Shown here in pieces: positions 32,167-54,858 of a stretch of 64,000 nucleotides of DNA. The translations under genes and the position numbers were made by a program. How positions within the stretch are numbered: position 1 is the stretch's first letter; the number at the start of each line of letters is the position of its first letter. Under the pieces are notes generated by a model that did no database searches, had not been told where the DNA came from, and saw only the letters and a list, made by a program, of their open reading frames with translations. Where the stretch lies: positions 1 through 64,000 of IMG/VR virus record IMGVR_UViG_3300035675_000004; one strand, given 5' to 3'. This DNA comes from a virus.

Positions 32167-34458
32167 ATGATGAGACTTGACAATTTTCTTATACAAGAAC
32201 TTCTAACCGAACAACATATAGAGCAACACGCAACCACTATAGCTAAACAGCTGGCGGCAAAAGTTGCTAATATGGTCAAGAAAATACAAACCATAGACGA
32301 TAAACAAAAAAAGACAGCTGCTGTAGAAGCTATCAAAAACACTGTCAGACAGGCGTTGAATAGTAGAGATATTCATATGCAGACCGTTCTGAAACTTGTC
32401 TCGGGTCAATTCTGGCTTGCATTAAAAGGAACATTATCATCAAATGCTGGTATCGGCCGCGAGGTTGCCTCTGTTTTTTCCGAAGTAATGAAAGTAGCCC
32501 CAAAAAATGCGGCGGCCGCGGGATTAGGCGGTGGTGCTAAGAAGGCGCCAGAAGGAAAACCAGTAAAGGGTGCACCGGCAGAAGAAACTCCCGAAAAGGC
32601 TGCTAAGGAAAAAGGAGAAAAGAAACCAGTTAAAGGTGAAGAAGAAAAAGAAAAGAAAACTGATCATGCACAGCATATTCCATCATCTGCTCCAAAATAT
32701 GTTCATCAAGTAGTAGCCGGAGAAAAGAAAGAAAAGGATTTGTCGCCCGCTGAGAAGGAAGCTTATAAAAAGTATGTAGAGAGAGCTAAAGGTAAACTGG
32801 AAAAATCAAAAGAAGCCGAACGAAAAACTAAGGAAGCAGAAGAGCGCAAAGCTGAAAGAGAGAAAATACCATATGGCTCAAAAGAAATAATCAAGAACGG
32901 ACAGAACAAAACACTAAGAGCTACCGATCTCAAAAAAGAGCCGGCTTTTACTGATAAGCATCCTATAGAAAAAGATGAATGGTTTGATGAAGCTAAAAAA
33001 TACGAAGGTAAAGATTTATTAAATTATCCGCAGTTCAAGATTGACCCAAAAATAAAAACCAGTGTTCCTCAGAAATATATGACAACATTGGAAAGAATGA
33101 TAAACACAAGGCGATTTGATGAAACACAGCCACCTATTTCATTCTTTGCAGGCGAGGGTCAGGGAGGAGCAGGAACAATACGATCACAGGCCGGCGAATT
33201 ACTAACTTTAGTTGGCACCACTATGAATGATAAAGATTTTGATACATTTATAACATCATTGGAGAAGCATATAAAGGATAGAAAATTTGGTGATGCCGGC
33301 CAAATCGTAACATTGGATTGGTTAAAAGCTGCAAGAGAATGCAGACATTCAATTCGTAGATATGTAGAGAAGAATTATCCGGGCGGTGAAATCGAAGCCT
33401 CAGCGTGGGATGTTCAAGAAGATGTGGAAGCGATGGGTCTGGATGACTACAAGAAGAACAAAGGCGTTTCTACAGATGCATATTTCAGGATAAAAACAAA
33501 AGACAAGAAAAATATGCTTGTCGAAGTATCATTGAAAAAAGATACCACGGTAAACTTTCTCAATTCTGGCGCGACTAAATTCAAGGAATGGGATAAAAAT
33601 ATTCCGAAAGATATAGATATTGCCGTTTATGCTGAGAACCAAAATAATGCACTAAAGGGATTTGTTGAACACAATCAAACAAAGATTAACAATATTCTGA
33701 AAAAGGCCCCTAAAGAATTATCTGACCTTATGAAAAAGAAGAAGCTAACTATTGATGATGTTCTATCACCAGCGGGGTCTGGTAGAGATAAAAGAAAAAT
33801 AATGTTGGCTATGGTTAAGGCGGCCGCCGAAAAAGGCGACGCGGATGCTAAAAGAACATTAGAGAAGATTAAAAAATCTTCAGCGGATTTTGGGGCGAAA
33901 GCTATAAAAAGCATAACAACCAATAAGAAACTAAAAGAAGGTATGATAAATGAAATCAGATCTGAGTTTCCTCTCAAGGATGTTATGTCCGATGCTGAGA
34001 TTATGGCCATAGATGGTCTCAATCTGGACAAAGCTGTTGCAAAAGAGATATTCAAGACAAATGATTGGAACAAGATACAGGAAAATCTGAAGGTTGTTGG
34101 TGATCCACCTTATCTGGCATATGAAGTAGAAACCACAAAGGAAATCGTTCCAATAGCTGAAGTTATGGTCAGAGAAGATGGGGTTGGATATGGTGGCCAG
34201 TTTAAGTTTGAGATGAAATTACATAGAGGGTTCGCCAAGAAACTGGATGAAGGTTCAGAGACAGTATATGGTGCCTCGCTGAGAAAACAGGATAAAGCAA
34301 AGAAAGAAAAAGAAAAAGAGGCTAAGAAGAAGGCTAAAGAAGCGGAAAAACAGGCTGCTAAAGCTGCTAAAAAGAAAACACCAAAGCGAAGCGTAAAGGA
34401 AAACTACTATCGTGTATATTTGAAAGAGGATAGTTTTCTCGAAAAATATCTTGAATAA
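32167..34458 (+). CDS. Large Lys-rich putative internal head protein with possible PD-(D/E)xK domain
   Basis: N-terminal FLIQELLTE leader; STDAYF...VEVSLKK motif. Confidence 0.6.
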   Translation: MMRLDNFLIQELLTEQHIEQHATTIAKQLAAKVANMVKKIQTIDDKQKKTAAVEAIKNTVRQALNSRDIHMQTVLKLVSGQFWLALKGTLSSNAGIGREVASVFSEVMKVAPKNAAAAGLGGGAKKAPEGKPVKGAPAEETPEKAAKEKGEKKPVKGEEEKEKKTDHAQHIPSSAPKYVHQVVAGEKKEKDLSPAEKEAYKKYVERAKGKLEKSKEAERKTKEAEERKAEREKIPYGSKEIIKNGQNKTLRATDLKKEPAFTDKHPIEKDEWFDEAKKYEGKDLLNYPQFKIDPKIKTSVPQKYMTTLERMINTRRFDETQPPISFFAGEGQGGAGTIRSQAGELLTLVGTTMNDKDFDTFITSLEKHIKDRKFGDAGQIVTLDWLKAARECRHSIRRYVEKNYPGGEIEASAWDVQEDVEAMGLDDYKKNKGVSTDAYFRIKTKDKKNMLVEVSLKKDTTVNFLNSGATKFKEWDKNIPKDIDIAVYAENQNNALKGFVEHNQTKINNILKKAPKELSDLMKKKKLTIDDVLSPAGSGRDKRKIMLAMVKAAAEKGDADAKRTLEKIKKSSADFGAKAIKSITTNKKLKEGMINEIRSEFPLKDVMSDAEIMAIDGLNLDKAVAKEIFKTNDWNKIQENLKVVGDPPYLAYEVETTKEIVPIAEVMVREDGVGYGGQFKFEMKLHRGFAKKLDEGSETVYGASLRKQDKAKKEKEKEAKKKAKEAEKQAAKAAKKKTPKRSVKENYYRVYLKEDSFLEKYLE

Positions 34459-34466
34459 TATAAATA
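34459..34466 (+). promoter_or_regulatory. T4-type late promoter TATAAATA
   Basis: Exact consensus, intergenic. Confidence 0.7.
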
Positions 34467-34485
34467 AATACAGTAGAGGATTACT

Positions 34486-34725
34486 ATGATTAACGAAATT
34501 ATGAATAAATATCTTGTAGAAGATGATCAGGACACCTTGAAGATACTTTTGAGACAGAAGAAGGAAGTCAGGATGCATCAGAAACGAGCTCTGGAGGACA
34601 CGAAAGATCCTCAGCAGAAAGACCGTATTCGTGAAAGAGTAAGAAGGGAAATAGAAAGTTTGGACAAGCGGATAGAAGCTGTAAGGGAGAGAATAAGTAA
34701 TAAACCACAAAAACGAGGAGTATAG
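34486..34725 (+). CDS. Small putative internal head protein
   Basis: MINEIMNKYLVE leader. Confidence 0.65.
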   Translation: MINEIMNKYLVEDDQDTLKILLRQKKEVRMHQKRALEDTKDPQQKDRIRERVRREIESLDKRIEAVRERISNKPQKRGV

Positions 34726-34993: not shown

Positions 34994-35260
34994 ATGAGCA
35001 AAGTAGATAGCACAATCGAGAAGTATCTTGCAGAGATAGAGCAGGTACAGCCGAGCACACCGGATGATATCGGTCTTGGAACGAAGATGTCCATCACAAC
35101 CGGTTTGAAAAAGCTTAGTATCATCCTTGACAGAGCGTATCAGGGCAACAATAAAGTAAAGGCAGCCGAGGCGGTTCATCTTGCAGCAGCGCTTGTGGAT
35201 ATGTATCCTCTTTATTGGAAGCTGATTATTGACACTTTGGCAGGAAAATCACAAAGCTAA
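34994..35260 (+). CDS. Small putative internal head protein
   Basis: MSKVDSTIEKYLAE leader. Confidence 0.65.
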   Translation: MSKVDSTIEKYLAEIEQVQPSTPDDIGLGTKMSITTGLKKLSIILDRAYQGNNKVKAAEAVHLAAALVDMYPLYWKLIIDTLAGKSQS

Positions 35261-35272: not shown

Positions 35273-35881
35273 ATGAAGATGAAACTTATCACAGAGCTGA
35301 ACAGAGATGTTCGTATCGTGGTGGAGGAAAGTGATGACAAGGATAAGACTTTGTTCATTACTGGTATCTATAGCTCCGCCAATATCGAGAATAATAACAA
35401 GAGGAGATATCCTCGGTCTGTTCTCGAAAGAGAAATTGACAAAATTCTCAATAGGGTAAAAGACAGAACCCTATGGGGCGAATTGGGTCACCCACCTAAT
35501 CCCGAAGTCAATCCAGAAAGAATTGCCATCTTGACAGAAGAACTGGAATGGAAAGGCGATGATGTAATGGGTAGGTCAAAGGTTCTTGACACACCTATGG
35601 GAAATATTCTCAAGACACTTGTAAAAGAAGGAAGGATGGGAATTTCCAGTAGGGGTCTCGGCACAGTTGCTGAAAGCGGCGAAGTGAATGAGGACTTTAC
35701 TCTTATTACTTGGGATGCTGTCACAGACCCATCAAATAACCCCTCTTGGGTAGACGGTATCTATGAAGGACAGGAATTTGATGTTCCATACAGACCACGA
35801 TACACGATGCAACAGGCCCAGCAAGAGTATTATAAAAAAATCTGGCAGGTTCTTACTGACATTGAGAAGGGAATGAAATGA
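35273..35881 (+). CDS. gp21: Prohead core protease (T4 gp21-like)
   Basis: MKLITE, N.N.R.YP, GELGHP, GISSRGLG and D.V.DPS motifs. Confidence 0.95.
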   Translation: MKMKLITELNRDVRIVVEESDDKDKTLFITGIYSSANIENNNKRRYPRSVLEREIDKILNRVKDRTLWGELGHPPNPEVNPERIAILTEELEWKGDDVMGRSKVLDTPMGNILKTLVKEGRMGISSRGLGTVAESGEVNEDFTLITWDAVTDPSNNPSWVDGIYEGQEFDVPYRPRYTMQQAQQEYYKKIWQVLTDIEKGMK

Positions 35882-36075
35882 GAATAGATGAGCTGGTAGA
35901 GAAATATCTTTCTGAAGATGCGGCCACAGAGAAGTATCAAAATAGGGTTAAGCAATTAGAAAAGGTTATGAAATCTGCTAAAACTGATATTCAAAAATTA
36001 AATCTCAGATATGAAATCGACCTATTAAAAAAACAGATAGAAATTGCGAGGAAAAAAGAAAAGAGGACGAAGTAA
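35878..36075 (+). CDS. Small putative internal head protein
   Basis: MRIDELVEKYLSE leader; coupled start/stop. Confidence 0.65.
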   Translation: MRIDELVEKYLSEDAATEKYQNRVKQLEKVMKSAKTDIQKLNLRYEIDLLKKQIEIARKKEKRTK

Positions 36076-36551
36076 TGGAAAAAATAGACGATAAGATCAG
36101 TAGATTTTTGGGCGAAGAACTCGGCGAGTGTCCATTCAAAAAGACCGGCAAAAAGCGATTGAGAAAAAAGGCCAACGAGGTCAAAGTTTTTCTTGATCCA
36201 GAAGAAGAATACGATGTTACAGAAGCAAAAGAAAATCTCAAGGCGCTTATGAAAGCATTTGGCGGCCGCATGTATGCCGGCGATCCAGACACCGTAACTC
36301 TTTATCCATTCAAAACCGGCGACCATTGGGAAGTTGTTGTGTCAATCGAGGACTACGATCCAATATCATACGGTATTAATGTTTATATCGACAACGACTT
36401 AATTGGTATGAGCGGTTATTACTCAATAGAAACAGATGAAGTCGATATAAGAACAATCGAAACAATCGGCCGCGGCCAGAAAAAATTTTATGATGCCACA
36501 CAAATGCTACGCTACGAAGCTCAAAAAATAGGGAAACTGGACAATGGATAA
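36075..36551 (+). CDS. Putative internal head protein
   Basis: MEKIDDKISRFLGE leader. Confidence 0.65.
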   Translation: MEKIDDKISRFLGEELGECPFKKTGKKRLRKKANEVKVFLDPEEEYDVTEAKENLKALMKAFGGRMYAGDPDTVTLYPFKTGDHWEVVVSIEDYDPISYGINVYIDNDLIGMSGYYSIETDEVDIRTIETIGRGQKKFYDATQMLRYEAQKIGKLDNG

Positions 36552-36801
36552 TAAATTCAAGAAATATCTGATAACAGAAGGAAGCGCTCCCGTAGCATTG
36601 ATGAATATGCTTTCCGATATTAAAAAAATCGACAAGGATTTTGACAAGAACCTCAACTCCATCAAAGCAATGTGGAGAGATGGTGTGATTGCGGATGATG
36701 ACTACGAAAGCCTTGTAGACGCCTACAAACATATCGTAAAGGGATTGACGATCTTCGATGATATTTTAGATGGTACGGTAAAGACATTGAGGGGAAAGTA
36801 A
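36544..36801 (+). CDS. Small putative internal head protein
   Basis: MDNKFKKYLITE leader. Confidence 0.65.
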   Translation: MDNKFKKYLITEGSAPVALMNMLSDIKKIDKDFDKNLNSIKAMWRDGVIADDDYESLVDAYKHIVKGLTIFDDILDGTVKTLRGK

Positions 36802-37043
36802 TGGAGAATAAATTTAAAAAATATCTTACCGAAGTAGATTATACCCCCAAACCAATCAAAATTAATGATGAATTAGATAATACTACTATGGTCATTCAAA
36901 AGAATCCAAGCTCAAAAGAATGGAGGAGAGCCGTTCCACCCGAAATTATTTTAGTTTTATCCGTCAACGGCAAATTCTATTTAAGTCAGAAAGGATGGGA
37001 AAAATTTAAAAGAGAGATAGATGACTATATCAGGGAAAAATAA
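36801..37043 (+). CDS. Small putative internal head protein
   Basis: MENKFKKYLTE leader. Confidence 0.65.
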   Translation: MENKFKKYLTEVDYTPKPIKINDELDNTTMVIQKNPSSKEWRRAVPPEIILVLSVNGKFYLSQKGWEKFKREIDDYIREK

Positions 37044-37309
37044 TGGGAAAGATAGCCGAGATAATGGAAAGATATCTAATAGAAGATATCGAATATAGTC
37101 GAGCCTATAAAGAATGGCGTAAAGCTAAAGACGAATTGATAAAAATGAAAAAACGGGCCGACGGTTTATCTGGTGATGCTAAGAAAAAGGAGAATGAGAA
37201 AATAGAACAGCTTAAAAAGAAAGTTGCTAATTTAGCGAAGAAGAAAAATGCTGATGTATATTATAGTATCCGCTTAGATCAACCGATAGGAAGCAAGATG
37301 AAAAAATAA
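37043..37309 (+). CDS. Small putative internal head protein
   Basis: MGKIAEIMERYLIE leader. Confidence 0.65.
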   Translation: MGKIAEIMERYLIEDIEYSRAYKEWRKAKDELIKMKKRADGLSGDAKKKENEKIEQLKKKVANLAKKKNADVYYSIRLDQPIGSKMKK

Positions 37310-37455: not shown

Positions 37456-38430
37456 ATGTTTGAGGAAATCTTGAAGATGCTAGGCATCGAGAAACTTGAA
37501 GAAGCACAGATTACCTCTATCAAGGCAAAGCTCGAAGATATCGTTGATATCAAAGCCCGCGAAAAGTCAGACAGCCTGCTCAAAGAGCAGTCAGAAAAAC
37601 TTATCGAGGAGTATGAGGAGAAATTCGAGCAGTATAAATCGGATGTCACAGGAAAGTTTTCTAATTTCGTGGACTCCGTTCTTGAGGAGGAGCTCACGCT
37701 TCCAGAGAAAATTGTTGAGTTCGCTAAGAAAGGCGAGCTGTATGACGAAGTAATCTCAGCACTCAAAGTCAAAATGGCTATTGATGAGGGATTGCTCACA
37801 GAAGAAGTTAAGACACTTTTGAGAGAGGCAAGGGATGAAATCTTGAGCCTCAGAGATCAGCTGAATGAAGCCACAGGCGCAAAGATGTCTCTTGAAGAAG
37901 ATGCAAAGAAACTTGCAGCACATCTTTATTTGAGGCAGAAGTGTGACGGTTTGGTTGAATCACAGAGGAAAAGAGTTTTGGAAATCCTTGACGATCTTAC
38001 AACGAAAGATGAGATTGACAGAAAGTTTCAAATTGTTATTGATCACGTTCTAAAAGAGGACGATATTCCGGCTACACCGGCTGCTGACCCACACGATCAG
38101 AGACCGGATGATACGGATAAAGGCGATACCCCTGCACCCGCTGGTTTACCAAAGGGGTCAGAGGAGCCTGAAGCAGAAGCCAAAACCTTCCAATGCATTT
38201 GCACGAAGTGCGGCGCTCAATCATCTTCCAAGACAGCTTGTGCTACCACAGCGTGCCCAAGTTGCGGCGGGGGAATGAAAGACGATGAATCAGCTACACC
38301 AGCTGATGAGTCAGGACAAGGCCAGATGGAAATTGACGATCCAGACGGCAAACCAGTGCAGGAGAGTTTAACTCCGTTTGATAATGAAATTCAAAAGTAT
38401 GTCAAAATTCTGAAAGAGAACAGATTTTAG
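37456..38430 (+). CDS. gp22: Prohead core scaffold protein (gp22-like) with Cys-rich insertion
   Basis: Acidic coiled coil immediately upstream of the MCP; AGGAGG RBS. Confidence 0.8.
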   Translation: MFEEILKMLGIEKLEEAQITSIKAKLEDIVDIKAREKSDSLLKEQSEKLIEEYEEKFEQYKSDVTGKFSNFVDSVLEEELTLPEKIVEFAKKGELYDEVISALKVKMAIDEGLLTEEVKTLLREARDEILSLRDQLNEATGAKMSLEEDAKKLAAHLYLRQKCDGLVESQRKRVLEILDDLTTKDEIDRKFQIVIDHVLKEDDIPATPAADPHDQRPDDTDKGDTPAPAGLPKGSEEPEAEAKTFQCICTKCGAQSSSKTACATTACPSCGGGMKDDESATPADESGQGQMEIDDPDGKPVQESLTPFDNEIQKYVKILKENRF

Positions 38431-38451: not shown

Positions 38452-39618
38452 ATGAATACAAAGGATTTGGTAAAGAAATGGGAAGCCATTCTTAATGAAG
38501 GCAGAAAGTTCAAATCTAAGAAAGTTCAAAGAGCAACTGCTGTCATGCTTGAGAATGAGCATAAGTACCTTACCGAAACCGGCAACTATACTCAGACAGG
38601 TCTCAATAGGAATGACGGTTATGCAACATCTGGTGATTTTCATCAGATTGCCGTTCCTATGGTTAGACGAACATTTCCTGAGCTTGTAGCTCACGAAATC
38701 GTAGGCGTTCAGCCAATGACCGGTCCCGTAGGGCTGGCTTTCGCACTCAGGTTCAGAGCGGGTCAGACATATAACTCGGCTGCTAATACAGAGCTCGGTT
38801 ATAACACCATTGACACGACATACTCTGGATCTTACACGACATCCGCTGGTGAAGCTTATGGTTCTAATGTCACCGGTGATATCGGTCTGGGAATTGGAAC
38901 AGGCGTGGCCATCAACGAAGTCAATTTGACAATCGAGAAGGCACAGGTCGAAGCTAAGACCAGAAAACTCAGGAGCCGTTGGTCTCTTGAAGTCGCTCAG
39001 GATCTCAAGGCTATGCACGGTCTTGACCTTGAGGAAGAAATGATGGACATTCTCGCATATGAAATCACAGCTGAAATCGATCGTGAGATCGTAGACGCCG
39101 TGAATGCAATTGCGGAAGCATCAAGTTGGTCATACTCAACATCTGCAGACGGTAGGTGGGAATCTGAGAAATACAGAAACCTCTACAATGTAGTTGTTCG
39201 TAGAGCCAACGAGATCGCAATCGACACCCGTAGGGGCGCTGGTAACTTTGTTCTGGCTGCACCTTATGTTTGTGCCGCATTTGAAGGTCTATCAAGTTTC
39301 GTTATCCATCCAACGGATGGCGAAATTAATACATTGGTAGCTGGTGTTGCCAAAATGGGTTCTCTCGACGGCCGCATTGCGGTTTTCAGAGACACATTCG
39401 CTGCATCCGACTACATGACAGTTGGATATAAAGGCCCGTCAGAGTATGACGCAGGTATTATCTACCTCCCATACATTCAGCTGATGGTATCAAAGACGAT
39501 TTACGAGCAGTCATTCCATCCAACCGTAGGTTTGATGAGTAGATATGCTATCCATAATCATATCTTTGGTGCAAACCTTTACTACAAGAAGGTAACGATT
39601 ACCGGCTTGCCAACCTAA
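38452..39618 (+). CDS. gp23: Major capsid protein (T4 gp23-like)
   Basis: GVQPMTGPVGLAFALR, EVAQDLKAMHGLD, EITAEIDREI and GYKG.SEYDAG motifs. Confidence 0.97.
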   Translation: MNTKDLVKKWEAILNEGRKFKSKKVQRATAVMLENEHKYLTETGNYTQTGLNRNDGYATSGDFHQIAVPMVRRTFPELVAHEIVGVQPMTGPVGLAFALRFRAGQTYNSAANTELGYNTIDTTYSGSYTTSAGEAYGSNVTGDIGLGIGTGVAINEVNLTIEKAQVEAKTRKLRSRWSLEVAQDLKAMHGLDLEEEMMDILAYEITAEIDREIVDAVNAIAEASSWSYSTSADGRWESEKYRNLYNVVVRRANEIAIDTRRGAGNFVLAAPYVCAAFEGLSSFVIHPTDGEINTLVAGVAKMGSLDGRIAVFRDTFAASDYMTVGYKGPSEYDAGIIYLPYIQLMVSKTIYEQSFHPTVGLMSRYAIHNHIFGANLYYKKVTITGLPT

Positions 39619-39719: not shown

Positions 39720-40244
39720 ATGACTATGCCTGTATTAGATAGAAAAGGATTAACTGAATTAATGGATATGGATCAGCTGCAACAGGATGTAATAGATGTG
39801 GCCGCTGAAACCGTATCTGTAACAGAGGATGAAGATGAAGCTGTACGCATCCTAAAACAGAATATTGAGAAGGCCAATGTACTTCTCGATAAATGTATTG
39901 CGGAAATGAATAACGGTAACTTTTCGGCCCGATTAGTCGAAGTTTCGAGCCTTTTAGTTAACTCAGTTACCACCGCGAGCGGGCAAATCCTTGCCCACCA
40001 AGACGCACAGCAAGGTTTACAAATCAAAGAAAGTATGATAAGATTAAAGTCAAAAGAAGTTCTCATTAGAGAGAAATATCTTAGCGGAAAAGAAGCTAAA
40101 GAGGGCTCCGGTACCAATCAACAACTTGTAATTACCGATAGAGAGACCATCCTGAAGTTTCTGCAAGACAAAAACGAAAAGAAAGAAGTCAAACAGGTTG
40201 TTTCAACACAACCAAGATTGGAGGACACTGATGATGCCAAGTGA
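39720..40244 (+). CDS. terS: Terminase small subunit (gp16-like)
   Basis: 'ARLVEVSSLLV' and 'NQQLVITDRETILKFL' resemble gp16 motifs; lies upstream of TerL. Confidence 0.7.
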   Translation: MTMPVLDRKGLTELMDMDQLQQDVIDVAAETVSVTEDEDEAVRILKQNIEKANVLLDKCIAEMNNGNFSARLVEVSSLLVNSVTTASGQILAHQDAQQGLQIKESMIRLKSKEVLIREKYLSGKEAKEGSGTNQQLVITDRETILKFLQDKNEKKEVKQVVSTQPRLEDTDDAK

Positions 40245-42189: not shown

Positions 42190-42190
42190 T

Positions 42191-42469
42191 ATGAGCAAGG
42201 AAATTGTGAAGGATAATGTTCAAAAAACCATTGAAGCATTTCTTTCCCACCATGCGAAAGAGTTATCATCTATAAGAGATAGGTTTATAACAGAGCTGGC
42301 CGCGGCCCTGAGAACAAAGGAAGCCGCCCAGCTCACCAACCTTGAGCTTACCGATATGGATGATAACATTACAGCATGGCTCAACTCGGAAGATAGGTTG
42401 AGGGAAATGAGTGTTTTATATGATGAATGGTATTATCCGTATATAGCAAAATATTTTAGAAAAGAATAG
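42191..42469 (+). CDS. Hypothetical protein inserted between prkA and yeaH
   Basis: GAGGAG RBS; ATG 2 nt after the prkA stop. Confidence 0.65.
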   Translation: MSKEIVKDNVQKTIEAFLSHHAKELSSIRDRFITELAAALRTKEAAQLTNLELTDMDDNITAWLNSEDRLREMSVLYDEWYYPYIAKYFRKE

Positions 42470-42478
42470 AGGACAATC

Positions 42479-49415: not shown

Positions 49416-49766
49416 ATGAGATTTGGAAAATATCTAACAGAATTTACAGATCCAGCTTTAAGAAACTTGGAGCAAAACGCTGAAAAAGAAGCGAAAGAGG
49501 AAGCCAAGAAACTGGAAAAGGCCTTCAGGGATAGAATAGATGATACAATGAAATCTCTGGATTGGTTTGCCAAGGAAACAATTAAACTGACACCTGATGT
49601 AAAGGAACAGGCAAAGGAGTTCAATGTTTTCGTGAGTAGGCTTATAGGATTTCAACAAGATACTATGTCTTGGAATTACTCATTTAAAATGTTGGATGAA
49701 TTGATAGACAATATCGAGGAGCACGCCAAATTTATCAGGAAAAAATATGGATGGTATGGAAAATGA
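49416..49766 (+). CDS. Putative internal head protein (paralog of 50296)
   Basis: MRFGKYLTE leader; ends HAKFIRKKYGWYGK. Confidence 0.65.
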   Translation: MRFGKYLTEFTDPALRNLEQNAEKEAKEEAKKLEKAFRDRIDDTMKSLDWFAKETIKLTPDVKEQAKEFNVFVSRLIGFQQDTMSWNYSFKMLDELIDNIEEHAKFIRKKYGWYGK

Positions 49767-50035
49767 AGGTAGATGAGAAGATAGAAAACTATTTGACAGA
49801 AATAATGCCGAGAGGGTTTGGCTATCAGATGGATAAAAAAGTGTTGAGAATTATAAAATATAGAGAAGTTAATGTTGAATGTTGTGGAACCTGTATGTAT
49901 TTTAAGGGAGAGGTTTGTAAAAATCCTGAAAATATTGCGACAGCAGCCGATGTTCTTGATACTGTAATTCCAGCATCTGCCGGATTATCTACCAGCGTAA
50001 ATGGTCTTTGCGAAGTTTATAAAAGGAGATGGTAA
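49763..50035 (+). CDS. Putative internal head protein, Cys-containing
   Basis: MKVDEKIENYLTE leader; CCGTC..F...C...C motif. Confidence 0.65.
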   Translation: MKVDEKIENYLTEIMPRGFGYQMDKKVLRIIKYREVNVECCGTCMYFKGEVCKNPENIATAADVLDTVIPASAGLSTSVNGLCEVYKRRW

Positions 50036-50296
50036 GTGAAAAGTATAGATGAGAAGATTGATATGTATCTTGGAGAGGGATATAAGGATGACCTGAAAGT
50101 TTTGAGGAACGCTGACAAGGCGCTCCAAAAAGCTCTACACGGTAACTATCCAGAACTCGACAAGATTGCAAAGGAAATGGCAAAAAGCGTTGCTATTGAT
50201 ATCAATAAAAAAACATCGGGTGTTGTATCTGATATGCCTTATAAAGCACAGTATGTCTTGGAAAAGCTGATTAGATTATTACAGGAGAAAGTATAA
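50036..50296 (+). CDS. Putative internal head protein
   Basis: MKSIDEKIDMYLGE leader. Confidence 0.65.
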   Translation: MKSIDEKIDMYLGEGYKDDLKVLRNADKALQKALHGNYPELDKIAKEMAKSVAIDINKKTSGVVSDMPYKAQYVLEKLIRLLQEKV

Positions 50297-50646
50297 TGGG
50301 AAAGATAGACGAAAAGATTGATATGTATTTGAATGAGGCTGTATCAGGTCAATTAGCCAGTCAACTCAGAGCCGCACAGAAAAGAGCCGACGATGCTTTC
50401 AAAGAAGGTGTCAGAAATACATTGAAAGCAATGGACGAATATGCAAAGGAAACCTGCGTTGATTTATACAAGGGTGACATACAGAAACAATCTGAATGCT
50501 TCGCCTCTTTTTATGCTAAGCTTATTATCTTTGTCCAAGACCAGTTCCAGCCCTATATGTCAGATGCATTGGTAAATGAGCTTGTAAGTGATATGGATGA
50601 GCACGCAAAAACTCTCAGAAAAAAATATGGATGGTATGGAAAATGA
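50296..50646 (+). CDS. Putative internal head protein (paralog of 49416)
   Basis: MGKIDEKIDMYLNE leader; ends HAKTLRKKYGWYGK. Confidence 0.65.
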   Translation: MGKIDEKIDMYLNEAVSGQLASQLRAAQKRADDAFKEGVRNTLKAMDEYAKETCVDLYKGDIQKQSECFASFYAKLIIFVQDQFQPYMSDALVNELVSDMDEHAKTLRKKYGWYGK

Positions 50647-51074
50647 AAAGGATAGATGAACGCTTAAGCGAATACCTTGATGAGAAAACATTAGATGTGT
50701 TTGCTAAACATCAGGTAGCCATTGCAAGAAAGACATTAAAAATGTCAGATGCTGGTGCAAAAATAATGGGCGGTATGAACAAAGAGGAGGCCAGAGCTGT
50801 TCTCAAGAAATATGGTCTGAAAGAAGAAGTTTTGACAGAAGGCCTCGGCCCAATCTTTCTAAAACAAGAGGGCCCAAATTTTACCAAAATTTATGTGAGC
50901 GGAAAGACATTATGGTTTTCTTATGAAACACTGGTTGCTTTTAGTGACGGAAGCAAAACCTATGCAACATCCGAAAAGTTTAGCAACACAACTTCCAGAC
51001 AAATGGGTACTATAGATGTGGATGTGTGGTTAGGCGATGATGATTTTCTAACACTTGCGAGGAAAAAATTATGA
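50643..51074 (+). CDS. Putative internal head protein
   Basis: MKRIDERLSEYLDE leader; second internal VLTE site; FSYET.VA...FS.TTSRQ motif. Confidence 0.65.
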   Translation: MKRIDERLSEYLDEKTLDVFAKHQVAIARKTLKMSDAGAKIMGGMNKEEARAVLKKYGLKEEVLTEGLGPIFLKQEGPNFTKIYVSGKTLWFSYETLVAFSDGSKTYATSEKFSNTTSRQMGTIDVDVWLGDDDFLTLARKKL

Positions 51075-51406
51075 CAGATATTATAGAAAGACTTGATTAT
51101 ATTTTGAAAGAGGATTATGTTGACAGGTTGGGGCAATCGAAGGTCATAAAATTTCTTGATCAAAATAAAAAGAAAACAGATCACTTCGGCGGAAATGTGA
51201 GAGTGTCCACTACTAATAAGCGATGGGCATTTGGATTAGGTGGCGGAACAGACCTTCATTTCATTCAGGCCGTCCTGACAGCAGACGGAAAGTGGAAAGT
51301 CAACTCCTCACAGGGTATAGCCAAGGTAACTAAGAATACTCTTACTGACGATGAGATGTTACAAAAAGTAAAAGCCATATTCGATAAATCAGGGGAGAAG
51401 AAATGA
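51071..51406 (+). CDS. Putative internal head protein
   Basis: MTDIIERLDYILKE leader. Confidence 0.65.
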   Translation: MTDIIERLDYILKEDYVDRLGQSKVIKFLDQNKKKTDHFGGNVRVSTTNKRWAFGLGGGTDLHFIQAVLTADGKWKVNSSQGIAKVTKNTLTDDEMLQKVKAIFDKSGEKK

Positions 51407-51777
51407 AAAAGGTACATGAGAAAATTGACAATTATCTGAATGAAGATAAGTCATCTCAAGCGAGAGCTGAGATGAAGATTGTTTTTGAAAATATTAGGCA
51501 TATTATGATTGATGCTGTAATGGATGCTGATGCAGCTCTACAGGATTTTGTAAATGATAAACTGGAGCGCAAAATCTTTGTGCCAGCAATCAAGAAAATA
51601 ATAAAAGAACTGGATAGTGCTGGTGACGCGGCTGAGGGCAACTGGCAAATACAAACAAGCTCTGTAGATAAGATATTTGCAGACTACCATAAAGAAGTTG
51701 TAAAACAGTTTGGTGCAGGAAGTCCGGTAGTCGATGCTTACTGGAATGCTGTTGAAGAACTATGGTTTGAGAGGTAG
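51403..51777 (+). CDS. Putative internal head protein
   Basis: MKKVHEKIDNYLNE leader. Confidence 0.65.
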   Translation: MKKVHEKIDNYLNEDKSSQARAEMKIVFENIRHIMIDAVMDADAALQDFVNDKLERKIFVPAIKKIIKELDSAGDAAEGNWQIQTSSVDKIFADYHKEVVKQFGAGSPVVDAYWNAVEELWFER

Positions 51778-51781
51778 GAAG

Positions 51782-51913
51782 ATGGGGGCATTGGTAGATA
51801 ATGAATGGGAAGATAAAATAAAAAAAGTGGACGAAAAGATCGACGCTGGTTATAAAGAAATCCGTAAATTGGATGAAAAGCCCGCGGAGAAACCGAAAGA
51901 AAAGGAAAAATAA
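51782..51913 (+). CDS. 43-aa charged protein (not in ORF track)
   Basis: MGALVDNEWEDKIKKVDEKIDAGY...; fills the gap; GAGG/AGGA upstream. Confidence 0.5.
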   Translation: MGALVDNEWEDKIKKVDEKIDAGYKEIRKLDEKPAEKPKEKEK

Positions 51914-51914
51914 A

Positions 51915-52202
51915 ATGAGACTACGAAATTTCTTGGAAGAAGAATTAAAGAATGTCAACTGGCCGAAATTTCTCAAAGCAACAATGCAACAGACCATTGC
52001 GGATCTTGAGGCCCAAGCGGATTATATCGTCAAGAAAAACCCGGCCACAGCAGAAAAAGAATTTGAAAGATTTGTTGATGCTATTAAATCCTCAAATCTC
52101 AAAGCTGTCAGCACGCTTGATATACCTAAAGAGATGATGCAACAGGTCAACTATCAGATAGATTTCGCTGTCAAAGAAATAAAAAAAGAATATGGATGGT
52201 AA
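51915..52202 (+). CDS. Putative internal head protein
   Basis: MRLRNFLEEE leader; ends KKEYGW. Confidence 0.6.
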   Translation: MRLRNFLEEELKNVNWPKFLKATMQQTIADLEAQADYIVKKNPATAEKEFERFVDAIKSSNLKAVSTLDIPKEMMQQVNYQIDFAVKEIKKEYGW

Positions 52203-52518
52203 AGAAATGGACAAGATGAACGCACATACACCGCTTCTTGGCGGAGAGAGAAGAACAATAAACGAGGCTGATCTCGATAGTAAAATGGATAAACTCGAAG
52301 AAGATATCAGTAATGTATTGGATGTTATGGGAGACGCGTATGATGATATTCAAAACGAGTGGTCAGATGCATCTGGAATGATGTATCAGTATGATTTATC
52401 ACAGACACCTAAAATAATCGCTGCTGCAAAGAAGCTTATAAAAGTTACCAATGATCTTATCACCAAAGTAGAGTTGATGACAAATCTGGAAAAGGCAAGA
52501 CAAAAAGAAAAGAAATGA
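52192..52518 (+). CDS. Hypothetical protein
   Basis: Coupled ORF, predicted helical. Confidence 0.6.
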   Translation: MDGKEMDKMNAHTPLLGGERRTINEADLDSKMDKLEEDISNVLDVMGDAYDDIQNEWSDASGMMYQYDLSQTPKIIAAAKKLIKVTNDLITKVELMTNLEKARQKEKK

Positions 52519-54269
52519 ATTTTTCGACCTTCCTAACGGAACAGAAGTCAAAAGCGGTGGGCATATTTATCGGAAGGGTAACGCCACCCACGATAGCCCA
52601 CCAAAAAATTATAGAGGATGCCTTCAGAAAGTACTCTAAGGTCTATATCTTTATCATCGAGGGCGAAAAAACCTCACAGCTTACAAAAAACTTTTTGTCG
52701 TTCAATCAGAGAAAAGAAATTCTCAAGGTCACAAATCCGAGAGCCATCCCTATTCTCGCTAAGGCTGGATATATCCCCGATATAATCGAGCAGAACCATA
52801 TTGACACATCTAACGGTGTGGCTATTATCGCTGGGTCTGACAGGATAGACGGATATATGAACCAATTTGGAGATGTGAAATACAATGTTATTCCTGACGA
52901 GATAAAGAGAACGGCCAGTGATGTATCGGCATCGAAAGTCAGAGCGGCCCTCGCTGAAAAGGACTTCGCAACATACAAGAGAATGATAGCCAAGGGGCTC
53001 GACAATCAGAGATGGTTTGATGAGTTGAGAAAACGAATGGCTCGGAAGGGAAATGAAATAGAAGAAATAAGGTCTCTGAAAGATATTATCACAGAAGAAG
53101 TCAACAAGCACATTGAGCACTTTGAGGATAATATGCTGAATATGGGCGTCGAGGGCATTCAGCAAAATGTTCTCATAGCTAAGACATTGAGAGATACTCT
53201 ATCTGGTTCATCAGCTGTAAAGGCCAAGATAACCGTGAAGTGGGATGGTGCGCCTGCCGTATTTTTTGGTATCAATCCAGAGAACGGAAAGTTTTTTGTG
53301 TCCACAAAAGCTATATTCAACAAGGAGCCGAAGATAGCCTACACCCCACAGGATGTAAAGGCATATTTTGGCCATGCGCCGAACCTTGTAACCAAATTGA
53401 TTGATTGCCTGAAATACCTGCCCTCTCTCGGCATAAACACCATATATCAAGGCGACCTGCTTTTCACCAATGACAAGAAGTTTGAAAAAATAGACGGTAT
53501 CGCCAGCATTACATTTACACCGAACACAATAACATATGCCATCCCAAACGATGACTCCGACTTGGCTAAGGCTGTCAGGGGAGCAAGAATAGGCATTGTT
53601 GTGCACACCGAGTATGTAGGCAAGACTATTGATACATTGTCAGCAAAGTATGATGTAAATGTAAAAAGATATTCAAATAGTAATGTATGGATTACGGACG
53701 CATATTTCGAGGATGATTCCGGTATAATCAATTTTACCAAGAAAGAGATTGGTGACATTGATTATATGATAGGAGAAGTTGAGAGAGTATCGAGGTATGT
53801 GAAGAGCGATATCTTCGTGAAACTGAGAGACTACGGTATCTATGAGTTATTCCGAAGATTTCATAATGAGCAGATAAAACAGGGTGCCCCTTTGAATGCG
53901 GTGTCAAAATATTTTGATGACTTTGTAACCTACATAGAGAACGCCCTTACTTCTTTACCGGCAAAAACACAGGCGACAATAGACAAAAGAACACAGAAAA
54001 TTGAGGAAATCAAAATGTTCCTCAATAAATACAGGAGGGAGATAGTGGGGATATTCTACCTGTATCTTCTTTTTATACGAATGAAAAATATTTTCGTCCA
54101 GAAGCTCAGCCAGATAAGTAGTGTTGGAACATTCATTCGTAGTGGTGACGGTTACAGAGTGACAAAGCCAGAAGGGTTCTGCGTTATTGACAATGACGGC
54201 AGTATATTGAAACTGGTTGACCGACTTGAATTTTCGAGGGCAAACTTTACATTGGAGAAGGTATGGTAA
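52515..54269 (+). CDS. Cytidyltransferase-like domain fused to a KWDG-motif (DUF6267-like) domain
   Basis: GR..PPTIAH, AGSDR and SASKVR (HIGH-type NTase); then H.EH.ED, TVKWDGAPA, QGDL.F, EGF and KLVDRLEFS. Confidence 0.8.
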   Translation: MNFSTFLTEQKSKAVGIFIGRVTPPTIAHQKIIEDAFRKYSKVYIFIIEGEKTSQLTKNFLSFNQRKEILKVTNPRAIPILAKAGYIPDIIEQNHIDTSNGVAIIAGSDRIDGYMNQFGDVKYNVIPDEIKRTASDVSASKVRAALAEKDFATYKRMIAKGLDNQRWFDELRKRMARKGNEIEEIRSLKDIITEEVNKHIEHFEDNMLNMGVEGIQQNVLIAKTLRDTLSGSSAVKAKITVKWDGAPAVFFGINPENGKFFVSTKAIFNKEPKIAYTPQDVKAYFGHAPNLVTKLIDCLKYLPSLGINTIYQGDLLFTNDKKFEKIDGIASITFTPNTITYAIPNDDSDLAKAVRGARIGIVVHTEYVGKTIDTLSAKYDVNVKRYSNSNVWITDAYFEDDSGIINFTKKEIGDIDYMIGEVERVSRYVKSDIFVKLRDYGIYELFRRFHNEQIKQGAPLNAVSKYFDDFVTYIENALTSLPAKTQATIDKRTQKIEEIKMFLNKYRREIVGIFYLYLLFIRMKNIFVQKLSQISSVGTFIRSGDGYRVTKPEGFCVIDNDGSILKLVDRLEFSRANFTLEKVW

Positions 54270-54607
54270 TGAAAAACAAACTTAAAAAATATTTAACAGA
54301 AGATGCTGGGCCCGGCAATAAAATATATGTATTTGATCACGGCAAAGCAGTTGGTTATTCGGAATCCGCAGCGCCGGCCTGTCTTACTTGTTTTTATAGC
54401 CTTCAACAAAATGTAAAAGCTGGCCATCATTTTGTAGACAGGATGACCTGTGAAAATCCAAATGTTTTTGAGGCTATTGCCAATGAACTGACAGCGCTAG
54501 GATTTTCTGATTTCAAGGGGGAAAATCCGATGAAATATCACGGTCAGTTTGATATGATGGTACACCCACAGGGTAAGTGCAAATTCTGGAAAAGAGGTAG
54601 ATCATAG
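54269..54607 (+). CDS. Putative internal head protein, Cys-containing
   Basis: MKNKLKKYLTE leader; CLTC...C...C. Confidence 0.65.
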   Translation: MKNKLKKYLTEDAGPGNKIYVFDHGKAVGYSESAAPACLTCFYSLQQNVKAGHHFVDRMTCENPNVFEAIANELTALGFSDFKGENPMKYHGQFDMMVHPQGKCKFWKRGRS

Positions 54608-54609
54608 AA

Positions 54610-54858
54610 ATGAAAAAGATAAGCGAGCTGATGGAAAAATATCTTATTGAGGAAAAAAAGGAAATGCCGGCTATTATCTGGAAGAAAGAGAACAAGAAAG
54701 GAATGCTGAGCAAGCTCAAGAATATGAAAGCCAAGGGATTCAAGACAGTGAGAATACATTCTGATAGTAGAGATCCTTATGGTTATACAAAATCTATCGC
54801 TGCTGCTATAAAAGACCTTGAGGCGTCAGTTGAAAAAGAAAGGACAAAGAAAAAATAA
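54610..54858 (+). CDS. Putative internal head protein
   Basis: MKKISELMEKYLIE leader. Confidence 0.65.
   Translation: MKKISELMEKYLIEEKKEMPAIIWKKENKKGMLSKLKNMKAKGFKTVRIHSDSRDPYGYTKSIAAAIKDLEASVEKERTKKK

What the first reader, a model, noticed from the sequence alone, without database searches (positions are those of the whole stretch)
32167..54858. About 19 unrelated proteins share an N-terminal (Y/F)L-x-E leader: a large capsid-loaded cargo repertoire
Seen: starts at 32170, 34486, 34994, 35878, 36075, 36544, 36801, 37043, 49416, 49763, 50036, 50296, 50643, 51071, 51403, 51915, 52515, 54269 and 54610 read, for example, MINEIMNKYLVE, MSKVDSTIEKYLAE, MENKFKKYLTE, MKVDEKIENYLTE and MNFSTFLTE, after which the sequences diverge. 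The MCP (HKYLTE) and protease (KLITE) contain the same site. Established: T4 internal proteins use a 10-aa capsid-targeting sequence (MKTYQEFIAE) that gp21 removes at (I/L)-x-E, and IPI* is an injected anti-restriction protein. Inference: this is a modular tag-plus-payload system that packages and injects many effectors, probably anti-defence or host-takeover proteins, in far greater number than T4's three IPs.
Basis: partly seen in the sequence, partly recalled or inferred. Interest (0 to 1): 0.88.

Follow-up and report, generated by a model that had tools for sequence, protein, structure and literature searches.

The report
T4-style capsid-cargo leaders, greatly expanded
An uncultured, distant relative of phage T4 puts the short N-terminal tag that T4 uses to load proteins into its head onto at least 22 mostly unrelated proteins, so it probably packs a much larger and fast-changing protein cargo next to its DNA; the principle is known from T4, only the scale and the payloads are new, and packaging itself is not shown.

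Summary
All 19 starts exist, and four more lie beyond the window (contig 98725-100799). Counting the protease, 24 ORFs begin with a 9-14 residue leader ending (Y/F)-(L/I)-x-E. A regex hits 26 of 112 N-termini against 2-3 expected (p about 2e-21). Twenty-two hits lie in three blocks and four are scattered, which is chance level. Payloads are unrelated except for two paralog pairs.

The contig is an IMG/VR fragment of a distant T4-like phage with gp20, gp21 (S77), gp22 and gp23 homologues.

- The leader's conserved positions (P1, P3, P4, P7) are the four that matter in T4's capsid-targeting sequence.
- The capsid protein carries KYLTE where T4 gp23 is cut (FLTE).
- The scaffold has four times the genomic density of (L/I)-x-E.

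Relatives keep the tag but replace the payloads. Identifiable payloads include an RNA-ligase-like DUF6267 domain fused behind a nucleotidyltransferase, with an internal cut site, and possibly a restriction-endonuclease-like 763-aa protein.

T-even internal proteins are already described as diverse injected anti-restriction proteins sharing only this leader, so this is an enlarged new member of a known kind. This scan has noted similar arrays in other uncultured T4-like phages. Packaging, cleavage, injection and anti-defence roles remain inferred.

The parts
30472..32163 (+). Portal protein (T4 gp20 family)
   Evidence: Pfam Portal_T4 E 3e-95, PHROG 213
32167..34458 (+). 763-aa leader-tagged protein (MMRLDNFLIQE|LLTE|...). 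It has a K/E-rich N-terminal third, a conserved C-terminal domain of about 470 aa, and a leader-like site near the C-terminus (RVYLKE|DSFLEKYLE).
   Evidence: The C-terminal domain has 256 homologues at E<=0.001 among the candidates scored (best 120 at E<=3e-92) in metagenomes. AF2 model pLDDT 88.7. Weak, repeated MspI/HinP1I similarity.
34459..34466 (+). TATAAATA, a T4 late-promoter-like site directly upstream of the first small cargo ORF
   Evidence: 10 sites in the window against 3.0 expected, 9 on the + strand, mostly intergenic
34486..34725 (+). Cargo ORF, 79 aa, leader MINEIMNKYLVE|
34994..35260 (+). Cargo ORF, 88 aa, leader MSKVDSTIEKYLAE|. Leader-tagged orthologues in three relatives.
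35273..35881 (+). Prohead protease (T4 gp21, Peptidase S77). Its N-terminus MKMKLITE| carries the site.
   Evidence: Pfam S77 E 4e-32, PHROG 207 E 5e-57. PDB 5JBL E 3.6e-22, with GELGHPP His and GISSRGLG Ser present.
35878..36075 (+). Cargo ORF, 65 aa, leader MRIDELVEKYLSE|
36075..36551 (+). Cargo ORF, 158 aa, leader MEKIDDKISRFLGE|
36544..36801 (+). Cargo ORF, 85 aa, leader MDNKFKKYLITE|
36801..37043 (+). Cargo ORF, 80 aa, leader MENKFKKYLTE|
37043..37309 (+). Cargo ORF, 88 aa, leader MGKIAEIMERYLIE|
37456..38430 (+). Scaffolding protein (T4 gp22 family) with 15 (L/I)-x-E sites in 324 aa
   Evidence: Pfam T4_CASP. 4.6 sites per 100 aa against 1.07 genome-wide. T4 gp22 has 16 in 269 aa.
38452..39618 (+). 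Major capsid protein (T4 gp23 family). Predicted maturation cut after Glu42 (HKYLTE|TGN).
   Evidence: Pfam Gp23 E 9e-100. N-terminal alignment with T4 gp23 (GSFLTE|AEI) and relatives.
49416..49766 (+). Cargo ORF, 116 aa, leader MRFGKYLTE|. Paralog of 50296.
49763..50035 (+). Cargo ORF, 90 aa, leader MKVDEKIENYLTE|
50036..50296 (+). Cargo ORF, 86 aa (GTG start), leader (M)KSIDEKIDMYLGE|
50296..50646 (+). Cargo ORF, 116 aa, leader MGKIDEKIDMYLNE|
50643..51074 (+). Cargo ORF, 143 aa, leader MKRIDERLSEYLDE|
   Evidence: PHROG 5643 (unknown function) E 2e-8.
51071..51406 (+). Cargo ORF, 111 aa, leader MTDIIERLDYILKE|
51403..51777 (+). Cargo ORF, 124 aa, leader MKKVHEKIDNYLNE|
51915..52202 (+). Cargo ORF, 95 aa, leader MRLRNFLEE|
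52515..54269 (+). 584-aa leader-tagged two-enzyme protein: leader MNFSTFLTE|, a HIGH-type nucleotidyltransferase domain, an internal cut-like site, then an RNA-ligase-like DUF6267 domain (VKWDG)
   Evidence: Pfam DUF6267 E 3e-103 and CTP_transf_like. Comparison with phage Melnitz. Homologue N-termini. Model and fold search.
53085..53096 (+). Internal I-I-T-E site (residues 191-194) just before the DUF6267 domain, at the place where stand-alone DUF6267 proteins have their N-terminal leader
   Evidence: Orthologues keep ILNE|E or VLNE|D here.
54269..54607 (+). Cargo ORF, 112 aa, leader MKNKLKKYLTE|
54610..54858 (+). Cargo ORF, 82 aa, leader MKKISELMEKYLIE|

Best explanation
The leader is this phage's version of the T4 capsid-targeting sequence and propeptide. 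It is a short amphipathic N-terminal helix whose hydrophobic face (P7, P4, P3) binds the gp22-type scaffolding core while the prohead assembles, so the attached protein is built into the prohead. The gp21-type S77 protease, itself loaded through MKMKLITE, then cuts after the Glu at P1. In the same step it trims the capsid protein at KYLTE and chops the scaffold at its many (L/I)-x-E sites. Folded payloads stay in the head next to the DNA and leave through the tail at infection. Small unstructured ones may be degraded or lost, like T4 gp67, gp68 and gp22. Shown here: the tag, its statistics and clustering, the protease family, and the shared motif at the homologous capsid-protein site. Also shown: payload diversity and turnover, and homologous payloads with and without the tag. 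Inferred: packaging, cleavage, retention, injection and any anti-defence role. The 584-aa protein would be a small polyprotein, released as a nucleotidyltransferase and an RNA-ligase-like enzyme.
For: The head module is T4-type: Portal_T4, Peptidase_S77, T4_CASP and Gp23. The protease matches T4 gp21 (PDB 5JBL) at E 3.6e-22 and keeps the His and Ser that are replaced by Ala in that crystal sequence. There are 24 leaders with E at P1 in all, L/I at P3 in all, Y/F at P4 in 18, and a hydrophobic residue at P7 in 18. In T4's MKTYQEFIAE, residues 4 and 7 govern targeting and residues 8 and 10 govern processing; these are the same four positions (PMC9026906, section 2.6). The T4 sequence was read from the T4 record. 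T4 gp23 carries GSFLTE|AEI and this MCP carries HKYLTE|TGN at the alignable place, conserved as YLTE, YLSE, YLME or FLME in five relatives. The scaffold has 15 sites in 324 aa against 1.07 per 100 aa genome-wide. Enrichment is 26 of 112 against 2-3 expected, with 22 in three blocks inside the late structural region. TATAAATA sites lie at 34459, 37377 and 47478. The invariant Leu and Glu use synonymous codons in genomic proportions, so selection acts on the peptide. Five relatives (MCP 64-85% identical) each carry about 9-21 leader ORFs. None of the 8 and 19 cargo genes compared has a homologue in the two more distant relatives, against 11/16 and 15/22 other genes. The nearest stand-alone DUF6267 homologues nearly all start with a 10-residue M-x-x-F-x-x-Y-L-x-E leader directly before the conserved HLEHLED start. 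A cyanophage homologue starts at that motif with no leader, and here the same spot is an internal IITE|E site.
Against: No virion proteome, N-terminal sequencing or expression data exist for this uncultured phage. No payload matches a known anti-defence protein or a T4 Ip. About half of the payloads are 50-110 residues, highly charged and probably helical. Those beside the protease sit where T4 has gp67 and gp68, which are core proteins and not effectors. Conservation of cargo against the closest relatives (9/19) is no lower than that of other small ORFs (11/21), so fast turnover is not specific to cargo at short range. Four proteins outside the blocks also match the regex, two of them with conserved N-termini (69390, 71582), and their status is open.
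Confidence: 0.75

Rival explanations
1. The tag is a real prohead-targeting and cleavage signal, but most of the small tagged proteins are scaffolding-core or DNA-condensing components. They would be analogues of T4 gp67, gp68 and the acid-soluble internal peptides. They would be degraded or would serve only assembly and DNA packing, not act as effectors in the host.
For: Cluster A surrounds the protease exactly where T4 has genes 67 and 68. T4 gp67 and gp68 also carry N-terminal (L/I)-x-E sites, for example gp67 RNFLIE|G. Many payloads are 52-110 residues, K/E-rich and have pI above 8.5, with no family match.
Against: Essential core parts should be conserved, yet none of the cargo has a homologue in relatives at 64-65% MCP identity, which carry other tagged proteins. 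Clusters B and C lie away from the head-core genes. Several payloads are large conserved domains, enzyme-like in the two modelled (584, 763 and 308 aa). In T4, all three non-essential Ips turned out to be inhibitors of type IV restriction enzymes (PMC12373910).
Confidence: 0.15
2. The shared N-terminus is not a capsid signal.
For: A radical-SAM enzyme is encoded at 11510-12646, and two more lie in the sugar cluster of the contig. Shared leaders on unrelated small proteins are typical of RiPP systems.
Against: The radical-SAM protein is Radical_SAM plus DUF512, lies among fibre genes more than 20 kb from the nearest tagged block, and is not a SPASM maturase. The tag ends in the motif found at the capsid protein's maturation site, at the protease's own N-terminus and densely in the scaffold. 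It matches the functionally mapped positions of T4's CTS (PMC9026906). The leader is charged and amphipathic, not a secretion signal.
Confidence: 0.04
3. The pattern is an artefact: chance matches to a loose motif, or one diverged paralog family.
For: The core motif is only four residues. Two paralog pairs exist.
Against: 26 observed against 2-3 expected, p about 2e-21, and no shuffle above 9. The hits cluster in three blocks. The remaining payloads show no detectable similarity. The same tag on other payloads recurs in five relatives.
Confidence: 0.01

Closest known systems
Phage T4 capsid-targeting sequence on internal proteins IPI, IPII, IPIII and Alt, removed by prohead protease gp21 (Mullaney and Black 1996, as reviewed in PMC9026906, PMC3012670 and PMC7697877)
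   Same: Same protease family. The propeptide is 9-14 residues and ends in aliphatic-x-Glu. Aromatic or hydrophobic residues sit at the positions equal to T4 residues 4 and 7. The same motif marks the capsid protein's maturation site. Payloads are unrelated. One large cargo protein also has a C-terminal site, as reported for Alt.
   Different: At least 22 tagged genes on about half a genome, against 3 Ips plus Alt in T4. There are two leader forms: a 9-11 residue form M-R-F-x-K-Y-L-x-E that matches T4's, and a 13-14 residue form M-x-K-I-D-E-K-I-x-x-Y-L-x-E. The genes lie in arrays inside the structural operons. There is an internal-site polyprotein. None of the payloads is homologous to a T4 Ip. 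The phage is only about 33-36% identical to cultured T4-like phages in its capsid protein.
Polymorphic ip loci of T-even phages (Repoila et al. 1994, as cited in PMC3012670 and PMC12373910; Silas et al. 2025 showed that Ip1-3 each inhibit a distinct GmrSD type IV restriction enzyme)
   Same: A conserved leader with replaced payloads between related phages. The genes sit in hotspots. An arms-race reading applies.
   Different: T-evens as a group have at least 10 Ips, a few per phage. Here one phage carries more than twice that number. Nothing indicates modified DNA or GmrSD as the target. No function is known for any payload.
Ejection and inner-body proteins of phiKZ-like jumbo phages (201phi2-1, phiKZ, SPN3US), processed by a gp21-related protease (PMC5694885, PMC7411985, PMC9026906)
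   Same: Many head proteins are cut after Glu by a T4-related prohead protease. A large protein mass is delivered with the DNA.
   Different: Their motif is S/A/G-x-E with long propeptides and conserved paralog families. Here P3 is Leu or Ile, the propeptide is short, and the payloads are diverse.
Phage P1 Dar system and P22/T7 ejection proteins
   Same: Proteins are packaged in the capsid and released into the cell. P1 DarA and DarB protect against restriction.
   Different: No shared short cleavable tag and no S77 protease. The sets are small and fixed.

Membership tests
T4-type CTS-tagged internal head proteins | Phage encodes a gp21-family (Peptidase S77) prohead protease with its catalytic residues | tested here: met
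   Pfam PF03420 E 4e-32, PHROG 207, PDB 5JBL E 3.6e-22. His in GELGHPP and Ser in GISSRGLG are present.
T4-type CTS-tagged internal head proteins | Short N-terminal propeptide (10-19 residues in T4) ending in (L/I)-x-E | tested here: met
   24 leaders of 8-14 residues, with P1 Glu in 24/24 and P3 Leu or Ile in 24/24
T4-type CTS-tagged internal head proteins | Targeting determinants at the positions of T4 CTS residues 4 and 7 (P7 and P4) | tested here: met
   P4 is Y or F in 18/24 (otherwise L or I). P7 is I, F, L or M in 18/24. The mapping comes from PMC9026906. This is sequence agreement only, not a functional test.
T4-type CTS-tagged internal head proteins | Same cleavage motif at the major capsid protein's maturation site and many sites in the scaffold | tested here: met
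   HKYLTE|TGN against T4 GSFLTE|AEI at the alignable place. The scaffold has 4.6 sites per 100 aa against 1.07 genome-wide.
T4-type CTS-tagged internal head proteins | Payloads unrelated to one another apart from the leader | tested here: met
   All-against-all BLASTP and phmmer find only two paralog pairs
T4-type CTS-tagged internal head proteins | Late expression together with head genes | tested here: inconclusive
   Same strand and tight packing inside structural operons. TATAAATA sites at 34459, 37377 and 47478, and a gp55-like sigma factor at contig 72623-73060. No transcript data.
T4-type CTS-tagged internal head proteins | Protein present in the mature virion with the propeptide removed | not testable with these tools
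   Uncultured phage. No proteomics was found in the library searches.
T4-type CTS-tagged internal head proteins | Ejection into the host with the DNA, and anti-defence activity | not testable with these tools
   No matches to known anti-defence or defence families. This needs experiments.
phiKZ-type processed head or ejection proteins | Cleavage motif S/A/G-x-E | tested here: not met
   P3 is Leu or Ile in all 24 leaders
RiPP-like leader recognised by a radical-SAM/SPASM maturase | A SPASM-type radical-SAM enzyme encoded beside the tagged genes | tested here: not met
   The only in-window radical-SAM protein (11510-12646) is Radical_SAM plus DUF512, lies among fibre genes, and is more than 20 kb from the tagged blocks
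ATP-dependent RNA ligase / covalent nucleotidyltransferase superfamily (DUF6267 domain of the 584-aa cargo) | Motif I KxDG lysine, plus the nucleotidyltransferase fold | tested here: inconclusive
   VKWDG is nearly invariant, and PEG and K-L-V-D-R are invariant near the C-terminus. The VIA top six hits are all RNA ligases: 5cot Z 8.7 (183 aligned, rmsd 4.0), 1xdn Z 8.2, 1s68 Z 7.9. Foldseek top hits are ligases but at E >= 0.04. No sequence-level PDB hit. A split intein sits exactly after KWDG in a relative.
PD-(D/E)xK restriction-endonuclease fold, MspI/HinP1I type (C-terminal domain of the 763-aa cargo) | Core fold with an Asp ... (E/S/Q)-x-K catalytic motif on adjacent strands | tested here: inconclusive
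   MspI and HinP1I recur in three searches but weakly: Atlas TM 0.23-0.26 by query, Foldseek E 0.25-0.64, VIA Z 5.5 and 5.4 with about 198 aligned at rmsd 5.6-6.0. D437, E453, S455 and K457 are invariant and lie in strands.

The most novel reading that the evidence does not exclude
This uncultured T4-like lineage uses the capsid as a delivery vehicle for a large and rapidly replaced arsenal of 20 or more different pre-made proteins per virion population. These would include ready-to-act enzymes: an RNA-ligase-like repair enzyme and a nucleotidyltransferase released from one polyprotein, and a restriction-endonuclease-like protein. They would act at time zero against host defences such as tRNA- or RNA-cleaving systems, before any phage gene is expressed. 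The short leader would then be a portable address label that lets any accessory gene become an injected effector.
Probability: 0.3. Interest if true: 0.7.

Novelty: new member of a known kind. Interest (0 to 1): 0.5.

Why it matters
Proteins injected with phage DNA act before any phage gene is expressed, so they are prime candidates for first-line counter-defence. In T4, all three internal proteins turned out to inhibit restriction enzymes (PMC12373910). A lineage that tags more than twenty unrelated proteins gives a sequence-defined catalogue of candidate injected effectors. It also shows that the T4 address label is conserved at the functionally mapped positions across very distant T4-like phages. 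A simple N-terminal pattern tied to the capsid protein's own cut site can therefore be used to mine metagenomes for capsid cargo. Two by-products are directly testable. First, DUF6267, a very large uncharacterised phage family, is RNA-ligase-like and, among its 120 nearest relatives (about 40-60% identical), nearly always carries the tag. Second, a cultured phage (Methylophilales phage Melnitz) has tagged homologues on which virion proteomics could be done. The principle itself is textbook T4 biology, so the finding extends rather than overturns current knowledge.

Tried and rejected
- **Family scans of payloads.** Pfam, PHROGs, NCBIfam and PADLOC gave nothing above threshold except DUF6267 with CTP_transf_like (584 aa), ExoX-like_C (308 aa), and PHROGs 5643 and 3628 of unknown function.
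- **PDB sequence searches.** The 584-aa and 763-aa proteins and a DUF6267 profile gave no match.
- **Cultured-phage searches.** The 763-aa domain has no hit at all. The 308-aa and 143-aa payloads hit only hypothetical proteins of unrelated Serratia and Microbacterium phages.
- **ESM Atlas.** It gave no usable hit for the 308-aa protein.
- **Genomic context of 763-aa homologues.** In most other viral contigs this domain is not next to a T4-type portal or protease, so it is not a universal head-module gene.
- **Leader as a nucleotide-level element.** This was rejected because the conserved Leu and Glu use synonymous codons freely.
- **Radical-SAM leader reading.** This was rejected for lack of a nearby SPASM maturase.
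- **Cargo turnover at short range.** I expected cargo to turn over faster than other small ORFs among the closest relatives, but it does not (9/19 against 11/21). The contrast appears only at greater distance.
- **Not used.** The single search of protein representatives and the third homologous-protein search, because unnamed hits to tiny payloads would not have changed the verdict. The small payloads were therefore not folded.

Full report
**What the DNA is**

The window is the first 64 kb of a 100,942-bp IMG/VR virus contig. Almost all genes run on the + strand.

The region of the finding is a T4-type head and neck module:
- Portal: 30472-32163, Pfam Portal_T4, E 3e-95.
- Prohead protease: 35273-35881, Peptidase_S77, E 4e-32. 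It matches T4 gp21 structure 5JBL at E 3.6e-22 and keeps the His and Ser that are Ala in the crystal sequence.
- Scaffold: 37456-38430, T4_CASP.
- Major capsid protein: 38452-39618, Gp23, E 9e-100.
- Large terminase, gp15-like protein and sheath.

The capsid protein is at most about 36% identical to any cultured phage. The best matches are pelagiphage HTVC008M, cyanophages and Sinorhizobium phiM12-like phages. Relatives in IMG/VR have capsid proteins 64-85% identical. A 120-kb relative is rated 50% complete by CheckV, so the full genome is probably around 200 kb and this contig is a fragment.

**Check of the observation**

Four further tagged ORFs lie beyond the window at contig 98725-100799: MGRPMRFEQYLLNE, MRFLKYLQE, MKFKKYILTE and MRFKKYLEE. 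With the protease this gives 24 leaders.

Aligned on the last Glu, the leaders show:
- P1 is Glu in 24/24.
- P3 is Leu in 21 and Ile in 3.
- P4 is Tyr in 15 and Phe in 3.
- P7 is a hydrophobic residue in 18.
- P11 is Ile, Val or Met in the long form.

Two forms exist. The short form has 9-11 residues, M-(R/K)-(F/L)-x-K-Y-L-x-E. The long form has 13-14 residues, M-x-K-I-D-E-K-I-x-x-Y-L-x-E. Most starts have a G-rich ribosome-binding stretch upstream.

A regex for the tag hits 26 of 112 called N-termini. It hits 1.8% of internal positions, and shuffled N-termini give a mean of 2.66 with a maximum of 9 in 2000 trials; p is about 2e-21. Twenty-two hits fall in three blocks, where 22 of 27 genes are tagged. 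After the leader the proteins are unrelated, except the pairs 49416/50296 and 98994/100371. The invariant Leu and Glu are spelled with synonymous codons in genomic proportions, so it is the peptide that is conserved, not a nucleic-acid element.

**Link to the protease and to T4**

I read the T4 genes from the T4 record. ipII and ipIII both start MKTYQEFIAE. gp23 carries GSFLTE|AEI at its known maturation site, gp67 has RNFLIE|G, gp21 has LLIE near its start, and gp22 has 16 (L/I)-x-E sites in 269 residues.

In this phage:
- The capsid protein has HKYLTE|TGN, between the conserved ENxxK helix of the N-terminal domain and the VPMVRRTFPEL segment. This is alignable with T4 and conserved as YLTE, YLSE, YLME or FLME in five relatives.
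- The protease starts MKMKLITE.
- The scaffold has 15 sites in 324 residues, four times the genomic density.

According to the review of Black's work, amber-suppressor scanning of the T4 CTS placed targeting at residues 4 and 7 and processing at residues 8 and 10 (PMC9026906, section 2.6). Counted from the cut, these are P7, P4, P3 and P1, exactly the four positions conserved here. The short leader form is thus a position-by-position counterpart of T4's tag. T4-late-promoter-like TATAAATA sites are enriched (10 against 3 expected). They sit at 34459 (just before the first small tagged ORF), at 37377 (before the scaffold gene), and at 47478 (head of the operon holding block B). A gp55-like sigma factor is on the contig.

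**The tag is modular**

*Across relatives.* Five related contigs each carry about 9-21 ORFs with the same kind of leader, in the same genomic slots. Of 116 regex hits (tagged proteins plus some chance matches) from six genomes, 73 are singletons by BLASTP. Against the two relatives at 64-65% capsid identity, none of 8 and none of 19 cargo genes has a homologue, while 11/16 and 15/22 other genes do. Against the closest relatives the figures are 9/19 against 44/61, which is similar to other small ORFs at 11/21.

*Within a payload family.* The C-terminal 388 residues of the 584-aa protein are Pfam DUF6267 (E 3e-103).
- In the cultured Methylophilales phage Melnitz, the DUF6267 protein starts MLTLINFSKYITE|DKGGKNLHLEHIED. 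Its neighbours start MQGFKTFLSE, MKKFSELTSELIE and MKKFSEIIE, the last being the cytidylyltransferase.
- In cyanophage S-8S53, the homologue starts MAKNTHLEHLED with no leader.
- Among the 120 nearest homologues in the metagenome protein collection, nearly all stand-alone forms begin with a 10-residue M-x-x-F-K-x-Y-L-x-E leader directly before the HLEHLED motif.
- In this phage's fused protein, the same spot is an internal LKDIITE|E site. Orthologues keep it as ILNE|E or VLNE|D.

The simplest reading is a fusion of two tagged genes that is cut back into two enzymes in the head.

**What the payloads are**

Most are unknown. Fourteen of the 23 mature payloads are 52-102 residues, and 14 of 23 have a pI above 8.5. 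None of the small ones matches a family at a curated threshold.

*The 584-aa protein.* The DUF6267 domain folds with confidence (pLDDT 83).
- The six best structure matches in an exhaustive search are all RNA ligases: Naegleria nick-sealing ligase Z 8.7, T. brucei REL1 Z 8.2, T4 Rnl2 Z 7.9 and 7.7, and Trl1 Z 7.8 and 7.7.
- Foldseek's weak top hits are also ligases.
- The family keeps VKWDG, PEG and KLVDR.
- In one relative, a naturally split intein sits exactly after KWDG, a typical intein site in a catalytic motif.

I take it as RNA-ligase-like, not proven. The N-terminal domain is a HIGH-type nucleotidyltransferase.

*The 763-aa protein.* It follows the portal gene, as does its counterpart in relatives.
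- Its C-terminal domain of about 470 residues has 256 homologues at E<=0.001 among the candidates scored (best 120 at E<=3e-92), but none in cultured phages.
- Its model is confident (pLDDT 88.7).
- MspI and HinP1I restriction enzymes recur as the best non-helical matches in three searches, always weakly.
- Invariant Asp, Glu, Ser and Lys lie on neighbouring strands. This is a lead only.
- Its last residues, RVYLKE|DSFLEKYLE, include another cut-like site. This recalls the C-terminal processing reported for T4 Alt (PMC9026906).

*The 308-aa protein.* It has a short ExoX-like C-terminal motif.

**How it most likely works**

- The leader helix binds the scaffolding core during prohead assembly.
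- The S77 protease then cuts after P1 Glu, at the same time as it trims the capsid protein and destroys the scaffold.
- Folded payloads remain beside the DNA and are ejected at infection.

In T4 this is established for IPI-III and for foreign proteins fused to the CTS (PMC3012670, PMC7697877, PMC9026906). IPI, Ip2 and Ip3 each block a distinct type IV restriction enzyme (PMC12373910). For this phage, every step after 'the tag exists and matches the protease's motif' is inference. The main alternative is that many of the small charged proteins, above all those around the protease where T4 has gp67 and gp68, are core or DNA-packing proteins rather than effectors. It does not fit here, because the only nearby radical-SAM protein is of the DUF512 type and lies among the fibre genes.

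**Novelty**

[quoted passage not shown] They also state that related phages encode at least ten Ips (PMC12373910).

New here:
- The number in one phage: at least 22 on a partial genome, against 3 plus Alt in T4. My regex finds 12 of 277 T4 ORFs, including ipII, ipIII and inh, and 9 of 216 in Melnitz.
- The evolutionary distance over which the tag's four key positions are kept.
- The internal-site polyprotein.
- The enzyme-like payloads.

Earlier notes of this scan report similar expanded leader sets in other uncultured T4-like phages, so the phenomenon is recurrent. I class it as a new member of a known kind, of moderate interest.

**Limits**

There are no expression or proteome data. Gene calls are my own ORF calls.

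Noticed in passing
Relative G005 (IMGVR_UViG_3300025689_000007), 19762-22047, minus strand; corresponds to window 52515-54269: The orthologue of the 584-aa cargo gene is split into two ORFs by what looks like a naturally split intein inserted exactly after ligase motif I. The N-part ends ...TVKWDG|CIHPDT..., and the C-part begins MKVKKVNKI... and reaches ...ILIHN|SPAVFFGINPENG. The window's gene reads KWDGAPAVFFG.
   Followed up: partly
Protein collection hits P0133-P0240; window 53103-54266: Pfam DUF6267 is a very large uncharacterised phage family. It is RNA-ligase-like by model, and among its 120 nearest relatives (about 40-60% identical) it nearly always starts with a T4-CTS-like 10-residue leader (MLRFKQYLAE, MINFKDYLNE and similar). 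It may be a widely conserved capsid-delivered enzyme.
   Followed up: partly
L117 (Methylophilales phage Melnitz MZ577096, 12203-16866): Four adjacent genes of this cultured phage start with leader-like N-termini: MQGFKTFLSE, MLTLINFSKYITE, MKKFSELTSELIE and MKKFSEIIE. They lie next to a DnaB-like helicase gene, not in the head module. This offers a cultured system for proteomic testing.
   Followed up: partly
T4 record NC_000866, 18966-19130 (gene 61.1): The hypothetical T4 protein gp61.1 starts MKTFKEFIKE, very close to the CTS MKTYQEFIAE, although it lies beside the primase gene. It may be chance or an unrecognised tagged protein.
   Followed up: no
window 51734-51913: A 59-aa ORF between tagged genes contains an internal, degenerate leader (KKVDEKIDAGYKE) that matches the leader-coding DNA of its neighbours at 71%. 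It is probably the relic of a decayed cargo gene.
   Followed up: no
window 49711-49767 and 50591-50647: A 57-nt stretch spans the end of one cargo gene and the start of the next leader. It is 88% identical between two places, while the flanking paralogs are only about 50% identical and the downstream payloads are unrelated. This suggests recombination at gene junctions.
   Followed up: partly
L186-L204 (other IMG/VR contigs): In another viral lineage, a 60-residue N-terminal module (MSINFQEILKELEYRV...) is shared at 92-98% identity by proteins whose remaining sequence does not match. One of these partners is the domain found in the window's 763-aa protein. This may be a second kind of modular N-terminal address.
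   Followed up: no
window 40198-45635: A complete PrkA (AAA_PrkA plus PrkA), DUF444 (YeaH) and SpoVR cassette sits between the head genes and the large terminase gene.
   Followed up: no
window 11510-13331: A radical-SAM plus DUF512 protein and a Gly_rich_2 domain protein are encoded between very long Gly/Ser/Thr-rich fibre genes.
   Followed up: no
contig 69390-72193 (L001 5390-8193): Two tail-region proteins (730 and 203 aa) start MSKFSDSPYFILE and MARVHFWQYLRNE. These N-termini are conserved in relatives and match the leader regex. It is unclear whether they are processed or are chance look-alikes.
   Followed up: no
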